NCBI RefSeq assembly: GCF_022846255.1
Contig: NZ_AP025682.1
Direction: 5' to 3' (one strand)
Origin: Escherichia coli
Lineage (GTDB): Bacteria; Pseudomonadota; Gammaproteobacteria; Enterobacterales; Enterobacteriaceae
Length of the DNA stretch: 64,000 bases
Below are positions 12,001 through 15,000 of the stretch, in pieces. The position numbers were made by a program. How positions within the stretch are numbered: the first letter of the stretch is position 1; the number at the start of each line of letters is the position of its first letter.

Positions 12001-15000
12001 CAGTTCCTGTATGAGCCGCTCGCGTAATTGTTGGTAATCAGCCGCGTGGCGGTTGTCCGGTACCAGCGAATCCTGAGATGGTGCGCCAGAAATCATTCTT
12101 CCTCCTGATGGCACGTCTTACCGAAAAGCATTACTAATATGAGAATAATAATTATTAACAATTGAATGCTACCCGAAACGGGTTTATTTATGCCCGTTTC
12201 GGGTTGGTAACAGGCGGAAAGAACAGAGGCCCGGATGAGGTATCCGGGCCTCTGTCAGGGAGGAGTTTAGGGGGGCGCGACCCCGGTTACATCCCGCGTT
12301 TAAAGGTCGAAGGAGTTACGCCAAACTGTTTCTGGAAGGCGGCAGAGAAATGGCTGGCGTTGGCATAGCCCAGATCGGCCGCCACCGTCATGACGGAGGT
12401 ATTGCCGTTGGCCAGGCGTCTTCTGGCTTCCTGCATTCGTTCAGCCTGAAACAGGCCATAGACGCTGTTGTTGAACAGAACGCGGAAGCCTCGCTTAATT
12501 TTGAGAACGCTCAGACCGGACTCTCTGGCCAGCTCCGCGACGCCCGGCGCTTGCGTCAGATCAGCCAGCAGCAGATCCTTCGCCCGCAGCAGTTTCTGGC
12601 GTTCCATCGGGTTGAAGTGGCAGGAGAGGCAACTGGCGTCTTCGCGATGTTCATCCAGCACCAGGCTGAGCATGACCAGACTTTGCCCCTGCAACCATAG
12701 CGTCGACGGCTTTTGTTCATGACTGAAGCCGCCGTGCATGCGCATCAGCGCGTGACGCAAGGCCTGAGCCGTTAAGTGGGTTTCAGCATTACAACGCTGC
12801 TGCTGGCAACAGCAGTGGGAGTCGATCTTATTCTTAATGACCGCGCTAATATCCGGCACCCACAGCGCGAGGGTTTCAGGGCTGAAGGAGAGGGTAATGC
12901 TCTCGAATCGGCCACAATAGGAGGCGCTGCCGCGACAGTCTGGCGTATGGGTAATGTAATGGCGATTGCGCGCAAGCTCCCAGTCGGTGTGGCGCCGGAG
13001 TCCCTGAATCGCAAAGCGCGATGTGCCTTCCAGGATGCACGAGAAGTTAATCCTGCCCAGATCGTCGTGTAGCTGCAACGTCTCTGGCCGCGCAAAATGG
13101 CCCCTCCAGAGCAAAATATCCATACCTTCCTGCAACGAACAGCGCAGCAGTTCACACTGAGCAGGAATATTGCCATCGTTTGCAGGTTTCCCGACCACCA
13201 ACTGGTGAATAGAGATTTCAGATTGCGTTTGCGGTGACTCCGTCATGACCTGGTTATCTCCCTGTGGCTTAGACCAATGCGGGTATAAATAGAACCGAAT
13301 GGGGTAGATGAGTTATTGATAATGGTTATTATTCACATTAATTCTCAGAACGCCACCCTGAATTGTCGTTTTTGGCGTCCGTAAAAATTCATCAGGAAAT
13401 TCAGTTACTCCCATGTCATCTCAATCATCCAATACTGAATCGCTGTCCCGATTTCCTCTCTGGCAGGTGATTACACCGGTTCGCAGGAAGGTTATTTTAG
13501 CTATGGCGCTGGCGGGGCTGGCGGCATTAACCAGCCTGGGGGCGCTCCTTTTTCTGGCGTGGAGCCTGCGTGACATTCGCGCGACGCCTGACGCTATTCC
13601 GGCCTGGCCGCTGGGCGGCGTGATCGGCTGCGTGGTCTTAACTTTTGTTCTGCGCTTACAGGCGTTCAACACCTCTCATTACGCGGCTTTTCATCTGGAG
13701 AACATTCTGCGCAGCAGGTTAGCCCGTAAAGCATTGCAGCTTCCGCCTGGCGTGTTACAGCAAATGGGCAGCGGGTCAGTGGCGAAAGTGATGCTGGATG
13801 ACGTGAAGTCGTTACATATTTTTGTGGCCGACAGCACGCCGCTCTATGCCCGCGCGATCATCATGCCGCTGGCGACAATCGTTATCTTGTTCTGGCTGGA
13901 CTGGCGGCTGGCAATCGCGACGCTGGGGGTACTGGCGTTTGGATCGGTTGTTCTCGTGCTCGCCCGCCAGCGTTCGGAAAATATGGCTCAGCGTTATCAT
14001 AAGGCGCGCGAGCAGGTTAGCGCGGCGGTTATTGAGTTCGTGCAGGCCATGCCCGTGGTGAGAACGTTTGATAGCGGCAGCACCAGTTTTTTGCGCTATC
14101 AACGCGCCCTTGAAGAGTGGGTCGATGTGCTCAAAACCTGGTATCGCAAAGCCGGTTTTTCAGCGCGTTTTTCCTTCTCGATTCTGAATCCTCTCCCGAC
14201 CCTGTTTGTCCTGATCTGGTCGGGATACGGCCTGTTGCACTATGGCAGTTTCGATTTTATCGCGTGGGTGGCCGTTTTACTGCTGGGCAGCGGAATGGCC
14301 GAAGCCGTAATGCCAATGATGATGCTCAATAACCTGGTCGCGCAAACGCGTTTAAGCATTCAGCGTATTTATCAGGTTCTCGCGATGCCGGAGTTATCGC
14401 TGCCGCAGTCTGACCAGCAGCCGCAAGAGGCGAGCATTACCTTTGAGCAGGTGAGCTTTCATTATCCGCAAGCGCGTACTGGCGCCGCGTTGCAGGAGGT
14501 GAGCTTTCATGTGCCTGCCGGGCAAATTGTGGCGCTGGTCGGGCCAAGCGGCGCCGGAAAAAGCACCGTGGCGCGCTTGCTGCTGCGTTACGCCGACCCG
14601 GACAAAGGCCATATCCGTATTGGCGGCGTGGATCTGCGTGATATGCAGACGGACACCCTGATGAAGCAACTCTCGTTTGTGTTTCAGGACAACTTCCTTT
14701 TTGCCGACACGATAGCCAATAACATTCGTCTGGGCGCGCCGGATACGCCGCTGGAGGCGGTTATAGCGGCGGCCAGAGTGGCGCAGGCCCATGATTTTAT
14801 TAGCGCTCTGCCAGAAGGTTACAACACTCGAGTCGGGGAACGTGGGGTATTTCTCTCCGGCGGCCAGCGGCAGCGCATTACTATCGCCCGGGCGCTTTTG
14901 CAGGATCGCCCCATCCTGGTGCTCGATGAGGCGACGGCGTTTGCTGACCCGGAAAACGAAGCGGCGCTTATCAAGGCGCTCGCGGCGGCCATGCGTGGCC

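What the first reader, a model, noticed from the sequence alone, without database searches (positions are those of the whole stretch)
12136..12254. Stacked regulatory elements between ybtA and irp2: Fur-like box, paired palindromes, perfect hairpin
Within 120 bp there are three elements: an AT-rich Fur-like box (AATATGAGAATAATAATTATTAAC), two near-identical palindromes (ACCCGAAACGGGT and GCCCGTTTCGGGT) 10 bp apart, and a perfect 13-bp-stem hairpin directly after the ybtA stop. That matches iron repression plus YbtA-dependent activation of irp2, with the hairpin separating ybtA from the irp2 promoter. A second Fur-like box lies in the ybtA/ybtP divergent region (13311-13336).
Basis: partly seen in the sequence, partly recalled or inferred. 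Interest (0 to 1): 0.3.

Follow-up and report, generated by a model that had tools for sequence, protein, structure and literature searches.

The report
Known irp2 promoter: Fur, YbtA, terminator
This is the already-described control region of the yersiniabactin siderophore operon in an E. coli pathogenicity island (an iron-repressor site, two activator sites and the end-of-gene hairpin of the regulator gene), so it is real but ordinary.

Summary
All three elements are in the sequence, with small corrections, and none is chance. The window is E. coli chromosome carrying the Yersinia high-pathogenicity island at tRNA-Asn. The 190-bp gap lies between ybtA (12287-13246, minus) and irp2 (ATG 12096, minus).

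1. The Fur box at 12141-12159 matches the consensus at 15/19. With the ybtA/ybtP box (13318-13336) it is one of only two matches that good in 64 kb. The identical 19-mer lies in a Salmonella pESI irp2 promoter fragment that Fur shifts in vitro.
2. The two palindromes (12191-12205, 12170-12184) are the repeated sequences RS1/RS2 that the literature assigns to YbtA. The same cassette (RS1, AAATA, RS2 ending GGGTAG, about 18 nt, then TTATYATT inside a Fur box) precedes fyuA and ybtP in E. coli. It also precedes three operons in each Pectobacterium and Serratia ybt-like locus.
3. The hairpin (12222-12256) has 14 Watson-Crick pairs plus one G·U and starts 30 nt after the ybtA stop. It keeps pairing through three compensatory changes in Klebsiella michiganensis-type islands, where a T6-T8 run follows it. 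It is most likely the ybtA intrinsic terminator, with a weak U-tract in E. coli.

Novelty: already known. Interest is low. I could not fetch a Yersinia sequence.

The parts
5989..12096 (-). irp2 (HMWP2) coding sequence. The ATG is at 12096-12094 and the Shine-Dalgarno AGGAGG at 12106-12101.
   Evidence: PGAP annotation of an identical E. coli record; sequence. The ORF listing start at 12114 (GTG) is an upstream extension of the same frame.
12141..12159 (-). Fur box of the irp2 promoter (minus strand GTTAATAATTATTATTCTC), 44 nt upstream of the ATG. Weaker overlapping registers lie at 12138 and 12135.
   Evidence: 15/19 to the consensus and the best match in the window. The 19-mer is identical to the pESI site identified in PMC11225919, whose promoter fragment Fur shifted. 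It is invariant in E. coli, K. pneumoniae and Salmonella plasmids and in K. oxytoca.
12145..12150 (-). Predicted -10 hexamer TATTAT inside the Fur box (inferred, not mapped).
   Evidence: It lies in the TTATYATT block (12144-12151) that is conserved at a fixed distance from RS2 in 10 of 11 cassettes. PMC11225919 says the Fur site overlaps the predicted -10. The consensus promoter scan found nothing here, as expected for an activator-dependent promoter.
12170..12184 (-). RS2, the promoter-proximal YbtA repeated sequence (AACCCGTTTCGGGTA). The invariant GGGTAG (12174-12169) sits over the expected -35 position.
12191..12205 (-). RS1, the distal YbtA repeated sequence (AACCCGAAACGGGCA), 21 bp start-to-start from RS2. 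The conserved AAATA spacer is at 12189-12185.
12214..12256 (-). ybtA 3' hairpin, read as an intrinsic terminator. The stem is 12256-12242 / 12236-12222, the loop is ACCUC, and the tail UCUUUCC is a weak U-tract.
   Evidence: Fold of -29 kcal/mol for the hairpin alone and z = -6.4 in context. Three compensatory pairs. Homologues have a T6-T8 tail. It is unique in the window.
12287..13246 (-). ybtA, the AraC-type regulator gene.
13271..13308 (+). RS pair of the divergent ybtP/ybtA region (AGACCAATGCGGGTATAAATAGAACCGAATGGGGTAGA), oriented towards ybtP.
   Evidence: Second-best PWM hit in the window; alignment.
13312..13336 (.). Fur box of the divergent ybtA/ybtP promoters. The core is 13318-13336 (minus strand GTGAATAATAACCATTATC), with an overlapping register at 13312-13330.
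   Evidence: 4 and 5 mismatches to the consensus. It differs by one base from the pESI ybtA site, whose promoter fragment Fur shifted.

Best explanation
The 190-bp ybtA-irp2 spacer of the high-pathogenicity island holds, in transcription order on the minus strand, the 3' end of the ybtA transcript and then the regulated promoter of the irp2-irp1-ybtUTE biosynthesis operon.

(1) A GC-rich hairpin with 15 pairs lies 30 nt after the ybtA stop codon. It ends most ybtA transcripts as an intrinsic terminator with a weak U-tract. This keeps the YbtA-repressed ybtA promoter from driving irp2.

(2) Two 15-bp repeated sequences, RS1 and RS2, lie 21 bp apart. RS2 reaches the -35 position. They bind the AraC-type activator YbtA, with yersiniabactin as co-inducer according to the literature, and YbtA recruits RNA polymerase to a promoter that has no usable -35.

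(3) A 19-bp Fur box covers the -10 hexamer, so Fe-Fur blocks the promoter when iron is plentiful.

Shown here: the presence of each element, its statistical strength, and its conservation. Taken from the literature: Fur binding to the irp2 promoter fragment and the assignment of RS to YbtA. Inferred: the -10/-35 positions, the class-II-like geometry, and the terminator function.
For: Locus identity: 100% identical over 1.5 kb to 2265 E. coli genomes annotated ybtA/irp2. tRNA-Asn lies at 21227.

Fur: the only two consensus matches with 4 or fewer mismatches in 64 kb are the two HPI boxes, against 0.1 expected. The same 19-mer is the site identified in pESI, whose irp2 promoter fragment Fur shifted by EMSA.

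RS: a 38-nt matrix built from the three E. coli promoters finds only the irp2 and ybtP sites in the window. It finds three sites per locus in Klebsiella, Pectobacterium and Serratia. In 8 of 9 cases in the diverged loci a Fur-like box follows at the same distance, although the Fur box was not part of the matrix. GGGTAG, CGGG, AAATA and TTATYATT are invariant or nearly so across 11 cassettes. The literature names RS in the irp2, fyuA and ybtA/irp6 promoters as YbtA sites.

Hairpin: z = -6.4. No shuffle gave an inverted repeat of 12 nt or more. Three pairs changed on both sides in K. michiganensis while the loop changed freely. Metagenomic K. michiganensis-type variants shorten the stem but carry T6-T8 directly after it. 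The T-rich side is on the ybtA sense strand only.
Against: No transcript 3' ends or start sites were available for this locus. The terminator scan did not call the hairpin, because only 4 of the 8 bases after the stem are T. In K. oxytoca-type islands the stem is reduced to 8 bp with a poor tail, and Pectobacterium and Serratia have no hairpin at all. Termination may therefore be partial or dispensable.

The three compensatory changes all come from one lineage. The RS sites in other genera were found with a matrix built from the E. coli sites, so their RS columns are not independent evidence; the adjacent Fur boxes are. The primary footprinting papers (Fetherston 1996; Anisimov 2005a,b) are not held, and no Yersinia sequence was obtained.
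Confidence: 0.88

Rival explanations
1. The hairpin is not a terminator. It could be an mRNA 3'-end stabiliser or processing stop, a protein-binding palindrome, or the scar of an old insertion or recombination. On this reading ybtA transcription simply runs on into irp2.
For: The U-tract in E. coli is interrupted (UCUUUCC) and the scan did not call it. K. oxytoca-type islands have a degraded stem and tail. Pectobacterium and Serratia loci do without it. In K. indica only the 3' arm is left next to a rearranged junction.
Against: Pairing is kept by double changes while the loop drifts. That points to a folded strand rather than a sequence-specific protein site. K. michiganensis-type homologues have a textbook T6-T8 tail on the ybtA sense strand. 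The sequence is unique in the window and matches no Rfam family. A stabilising role and a terminating role are not mutually exclusive.
Confidence: 0.15
2. The two palindromes act at the RNA level. Their 12-nt arms are perfectly complementary, so in transcripts reading through from ybtA they would form a second hairpin (-22 kcal/mol) that attenuates or terminates.
For: The fold of 12160-12215 on the minus strand gives a 12-bp stem, z = -5.4. The scan flagged the RS palindrome at 12171-12183 (the promoter-proximal RS2) as terminator-like, but on the plus strand.
Against: The same motif sits upstream of the ybtP and fyuA promoters, where it would not be transcribed from its own promoter. In diverged cassettes the complementarity between RS1 and RS2 decays while fixed sequence blocks (CGGG, GGGTAG, AAATA) stay invariant; this is the signature of a protein site, not a helix. 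No U-tract follows on the minus strand. The plus-strand call has no gene to terminate.
Confidence: 0.04
3. The AT-rich box is only promoter DNA (a -10 or UP-like tract) that happens to resemble a Fur box. Iron control of irp2 would then be indirect, through Fur control of ybtA.
For: The region is 80% A+T, and the Fur consensus is itself AT-rich and -10-like.
Against: Shuffling the local 45 bp reaches 15/19 in only 3 of 2000 trials. Fur alone shifted an irp2 promoter fragment containing the identical 19-mer. A Fur-like box sits at the same offset in 10 of 11 cassettes across four genera.
Confidence: 0.03

Closest known systems
[quoted passage not shown] 1996; Anisimov et al. 2005a,b, cited in PMC5634559 and PMC8725597)
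   Same: Same genes, same four-operon layout, Fur box plus repeated sequences RS in each promoter, YbtA as activator of irp2/fyuA/ybtP and repressor of ybtA. The window is the E. coli copy of that island.
   Different: Nothing of substance. I could not compare base by base with a Yersinia sequence. The ybtA 3' hairpin is not mentioned in any paper I could read.
irp2 and ybtA promoters of the Salmonella Infantis pESI megaplasmid (PMC11225919)
   Same: The irp2 Fur site is identical (GTTAATAATTATTATTCTC, 44 bp before the ATG). The ybtA Fur site differs by one base. The spacer is 96.8% identical, hairpin included.
   Different: pESI has a 201-bp insertion in the ybtA upstream region that the window lacks.
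AraC at araI1-araI2 and other class-II AraC/XylS activators (textbook knowledge)
   Same: Two about 15-17-bp half-sites in direct orientation at 21-bp phasing, with the proximal one overlapping a weak -35.
   Different: The YbtA sites are each internally palindromic in irp2/fyuA. The effector is a metal-siderophore complex. Orientation and stoichiometry of YbtA on RS1/RS2 were not tested here.
PchR and the PchR-box of Pseudomonas aeruginosa pyochelin genes (Michel et al. 2005, cited in PMC3672683)
   Same: An AraC-type regulator activated by its own ferri-siderophore, working on promoters that also carry Fur boxes.
   Different: Different protein family branch and different box sequence. Not compared here.

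Membership tests
Fur-repressed promoter (Fur box) | 19-bp 9-1-9 inverted repeat resembling GATAATGATAATCATTATC | tested here: met
   15/19 at 12141-12159 and 15/19 at 13318-13336. These are the only two such matches in 64 kb, against 0.1 expected. Scoring was by consensus mismatch, not a position weight matrix.
Fur-repressed promoter (Fur box) | Box overlaps the core promoter (-10/-35) of the regulated gene | tested here: inconclusive
   A conserved TATTAT lies inside the box, and PMC11225919 predicts a -10 there. No start site was available for irp2.
Fur-repressed promoter (Fur box) | Fur protein binds the DNA, and expression is repressed by iron | not testable with these tools
   Literature only: EMSA on the pESI irp2 promoter fragment containing the identical 19-mer, and de-repression in a fur mutant (PMC11225919).
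YbtA-dependent promoter (repeated sequences RS1/RS2) | Two copies of the repeated sequence just upstream of the core promoter, shared by the irp2, fyuA/psn and ybtP/ybtA promoters | tested here: met
   The same 38-nt block lies at window 12168-12205, window 13271-13308 and L002 4669-4706. It is aligned.
YbtA-dependent promoter (repeated sequences RS1/RS2) | Linked gene for the AraC-type regulator YbtA | tested here: met
   The ORF 12287-13246 is annotated YbtA, with an AraC-type HTH C-terminus.
   The genome scan returned Klebsiella, Pectobacterium and Serratia only. The primary Yersinia papers are not held. Conservation in the other genera is strong.
YbtA-dependent promoter (repeated sequences RS1/RS2) | YbtA protects the repeats, and activation needs YbtA | not testable with these tools
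   Stated in PMC5634559 and PMC8725597 with reference to Anisimov 2005 and Fetherston 1996.
Intrinsic (Rho-independent) terminator | Stable GC-rich hairpin shortly after a stop codon, on the sense strand | tested here: met
   15 pairs, -29 kcal/mol, 30 nt after the ybtA stop.
Intrinsic (Rho-independent) terminator | Run of U directly after the stem | tested here: inconclusive
   In the window the bases after the stem are UCUUUCC, or 4 T in the 8 bases, which is below the scan's threshold. Homologous hairpins in K. michiganensis-type islands carry T6-T8.
Intrinsic (Rho-independent) terminator | Transcripts end there | not testable with these tools
   No RNA-end data. The literature treats ybtA as its own operon.

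The most novel reading that the evidence does not exclude
The ybtA hairpin could be a deliberately leaky terminator. Its strength differs between island lineages: a canonical T6-T8 tail in K. michiganensis-type, a weak tail in the E. coli type (the type presumed to match Yersinia, which was not checked here), a degraded hairpin in K. oxytoca-type, and none in Pectobacterium or Serratia. A tunable fraction of ybtA transcripts would then read into irp2, giving a basal, YbtA-independent supply of biosynthesis enzymes that primes the siderophore-dependent positive loop. The perfectly complementary RS1/RS2 arms could add a second RNA-level brake.
Probability: 0.1. Interest if true: 0.3.

Novelty: already known. 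Interest (0 to 1): 0.1.

Why it matters
It matters little beyond annotation. The Fur box and the YbtA repeats of the irp2 promoter have been described since the 1990s and are used in reporter constructs.

Three modest additions come from this check. First, the RS1-AAATA-RS2-Fur/-10 unit is a fixed-geometry cassette, reused at three promoters per locus and conserved out to Pectobacterium and Serratia. Second, the conserved letters fit a direct repeat at 21-bp phasing better than a pair of palindromes. Third, the ybtA 3' hairpin is under structural selection and varies in terminator quality between island lineages. None of these changes the accepted picture of yersiniabactin regulation.

Tried and rejected
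- **Rfam**: nothing reached threshold. A sub-threshold Thr_leader match (27.8 bits against 55 needed) on the plus strand across 12125-12258 was rejected as a chance fit to two hairpins.
- **Consensus promoter scan**: no sigma-70 site in 11900-13600. This is uninformative for activator-dependent promoters.
- **Terminator scan**: its only call was the RS palindrome on the plus strand. Rejected, because it is on the wrong strand and is the same motif as in the other promoters.
- **REP-like or repeated element**: rejected. The hairpin core occurs once in the window.
- **Yersinia sequence**: not obtained. The single genome-contig scan returned other genera. The viral-contig scan found nothing. An exact-protein look-up gave ten loci with the same ybtP-ybtA-irp2 arrangement; their organisms were not determined. 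The cluster listing showed only E. coli and Klebsiella names.
- **Primary papers and the Perry & Fetherston review**: not held. Searching the library for the RS or hairpin sequences found only the pESI paper's Fur site.
- **Literature on a ybtA terminator**: two searches found nothing relevant.
- **True Fur position weight matrix**: not built, because I had no verified site collection. Consensus mismatch counts with shuffles were used instead.
- **Other Fur-like hits with 5 mismatches** (33053, 45316, 46909, 53709, 63958): by collinearity with an annotated genome they fall inside coding or pseudogene sequence, so they were set aside as chance.

Full report
**Where we are.** Window 12000-13500 is 100% identical to the chromosomes of many E. 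coli strains, and 2265 of 5426 complete genomes carry at least 80% of it at 99% identity or better. The records annotate irp2, ybtA and ybtP there. [quoted passage not shown] The finding therefore lies in the 190-bp ybtA-irp2 spacer, 12097-12286.

**Check of the observation.** Every element is present. The hairpin has 14 perfect pairs (12255-12242 with 12236-12223), a possible closing G·U, and a 5-nt loop. It begins 30 nt after the ybtA stop codon. The two 13-mers are 8 nt apart. Their 12-nt cores are also perfect reverse complements of each other, 10 nt apart, and they lie 21 bp start-to-start.

In 2000 dinucleotide shuffles of the spacer, the longest perfect inverted repeat was 11 nt. The hairpin region folds at -38.5 kcal/mol, against -21.7 ± 2.6 for shuffles.

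**Fur.** I scanned both strands of the whole window against GATAATGATAATCATTATC. One hundred dinucleotide shuffles of the window give 0.1 such hits on average. Shuffling only the local AT-rich 45 bp reaches the observed score in 3/2000 and 1/2000 trials. Both boxes have weaker overlapping registers 3-6 bp away, as is common for Fur arrays.

The minus-strand reading of the irp2 box, GTTAATAATTATTATTCTC, is letter-for-letter the site PMC11225919 reports 44 bp upstream of irp2 on the Salmonella pESI plasmid. That paper says the site overlaps the predicted -10, and purified Fur shifted the irp2 promoter region that contains it. The paper's ybtA site differs from the window's by one base. The five 5-mismatch hits elsewhere in the window fall inside genes, and I treat them as chance.

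**The palindromes.** PMC5634559 and PMC8725597 state that the irp2, fyuA and divergent ybtA/irp6(ybtP) promoters contain repeated sequences (RS) that are YbtA binding sites, next to Fur boxes. The fyuA promoter lies outside the window, so I fetched it from an E. coli genome. Read in the direction of the activated gene, the three promoters line up:

| Promoter | Sequence |
|---|---|
| irp2 | AACCCGAAACGGGCATAAATAAACCCGTTTCGGGTAGC…GTTAATAATTATTATTCTC |
| fyuA | GACCCGAAACAGGTTGAAATAAACCCGTTTCGGGTAGC…AGAAATAGTTATCATTTTC |
| ybtP | AGACCAATGCGGGTATAAATAGAACCGAATGGGGTAGA…GATAATGGTTATTATTCAC |

A 38-nt matrix from these three finds only the irp2 and ybtP sites in the 64-kb window, plus their reverse-strand echoes. 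A scan of one genome per species with the YbtA protein returned seven loci: three Klebsiella (97% YbtA identity), two Pectobacterium (55-56%), Serratia marcescens (52%) and a decayed Serratia symbiotica copy.

In the Pectobacterium and Serratia marcescens loci the matrix finds three sites per locus: before the ybtP homologue, just after ybtA, and before the fyuA homologue. In 8 of the 9 diverged cases a Fur-like box follows at the same offset, although the matrix did not include it. That is independent support.

Across 11 cassettes the invariant or near-invariant letters are CGGG in RS1, AAATA in the spacer, GGGTAG at the end of RS2, and TTATYATT about 18 nt further on. The left arms of the palindromes (ACCCG) and the central triplets vary, and the RS1/RS2 complementarity decays. 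This pattern fits a protein reading two like-oriented half-sites two helical turns apart, as AraC-family dimers do (textbook knowledge). It does not fit an RNA helix.

With TATTAT (12150-12145) as the -10, a 17-bp spacer puts the -35 on GGTAGC. RS2 therefore overlaps a non-consensus -35, which is the class-II arrangement. These positions are inferred. No irp2 start site was available, and the consensus scan finds no sigma-70 promoter.

**The hairpin.** It occurs once in the window and matches no Rfam family. The spacer is 96.8-98.8% identical in E. coli, K. pneumoniae and Salmonella plasmids, with a single loop change. More distant islands are informative:

- **K. michiganensis.** The arms are AACAAGGCCCGGAT / ATCCGGGCCTTGTT. 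Three pairs are changed on both sides relative to E. coli, the loop differs, and the tail is TTTTTTGCC.
- **K. oxytoca.** An 8-bp core is kept and the tail is poor.
- **Metagenome variants.** A scan anchored on RS2 plus the Fur box returned 16 contigs of these two Klebsiella types. In the K. michiganensis-type variants the stem is 11 bp, sometimes with a wobble or a mismatch, and is followed directly by T6-T8. That is a textbook intrinsic terminator on the ybtA sense strand.
- **Pectobacterium and Serratia.** These have no hairpin, and RS1 starts about 30 nt after the ybtA stop.

I conclude that the E. coli hairpin is the ybtA terminator, but a weak one (tail UCUUUCC). How much transcription reads through is unknown. 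I put about 0.7 on the terminator reading alone. The evidence is limited: all three compensatory changes come from one lineage, and there are no transcript-end data.

**Mechanism.** The minus strand carries the ybtA coding sequence, a terminator, RS1, RS2 overlapping the -35, the Fur box over the -10, a leader of about 40 nt, and then irp2. With iron, Fe-Fur sits on the -10. Without iron, Fur leaves, and YbtA on RS1/RS2 (with yersiniabactin as co-inducer according to the cited literature) recruits polymerase.

The divergent ybtA/ybtP region has the same cassette pointing at ybtP. In pESI the ybtA start site was mapped 5 bp beyond the Fur site. Transferred to the window, this is about 13312, which places ybtA's start immediately next to the RS pair and fits YbtA autorepression. 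The terminator then keeps a YbtA-repressed promoter from feeding a YbtA-activated operon.

**Comparison and novelty.** This is the E. coli copy of promoters described in Yersinia (Fetherston 1996 and Anisimov 2005a,b, which I could only see cited) and re-examined in E. coli UTI89 and NU14 and in Salmonella pESI. The Fur box and the RS are already known. The hairpin is an ordinary terminator that the papers I could read do not mention.

Conservation in four other genera makes a failure unlikely.

**Verdict.** The finding is already known, and interest is about 0.1.

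Noticed in passing
L004 3440-3660 (Klebsiella indica): ybtA is followed directly by fyuA (92% aa identity to E. coli FyuA), with no irp2-ybtE operon between them. The promoter looks hybrid: RS1/RS2 of irp2 type, but Fur box and leader of fyuA type. Only the 3' arm of the ybtA hairpin remains. This may be a recombination between the two near-identical promoter cassettes.
   Followed up: partly
window 13363-13383 and L002 4735-4760: The ybtP and fyuA leaders share ATTGTCG..T..TTTTTGGCGT downstream of their Fur boxes. This may be the third repeated sequence (RS3) that the literature mentions for the ybtA region.
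   Followed up: no
window 13413 vs 13503: The ybtP start is ambiguous. The longest ORF starts at 13413 (600 aa) and PGAP annotates 13503 (570 aa). The extra 30 residues are conserved in K. indica (tblastn over residues 1-601). Alignments to Pectobacterium and Serratia start at residue 17.
   Followed up: partly
L006 3465-5430, L007, L008 3433-5400: Pectobacterium and Serratia ybt-like loci have a different layout: ybtP, then ybtA, then a short operon of unknown proteins, then fyuA. Each of the three promoters has its own RS plus Fur cassette, except that the Serratia cassette just after ybtA lacks a recognisable Fur box.
   Followed up: no
window 12097-12140: The irp2 leader from the Fur box to the ATG (…GACGTGCCATCAGGAGGAAGAATG) is almost invariant, even in Klebsiella islands whose upstream spacer has diverged. 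This is more conservation than a ribosome-binding site alone needs.
   Followed up: no
window 12270-12284: A second small GC hairpin (GGGGUCGCGCCCC) lies right after the ybtA stop codon in the fold. It is not conserved in K. oxytoca, which has a deletion there.
   Followed up: no
L009 (Serratia symbiotica): This ybt locus is decayed. YbtA matches only from residue 33, irp2 and ybtP are fragmented in tblastn, and the RS pair is degenerate. Next to it sits a very good Fur box (GATAATGATAAGTATTATT).
   Followed up: no
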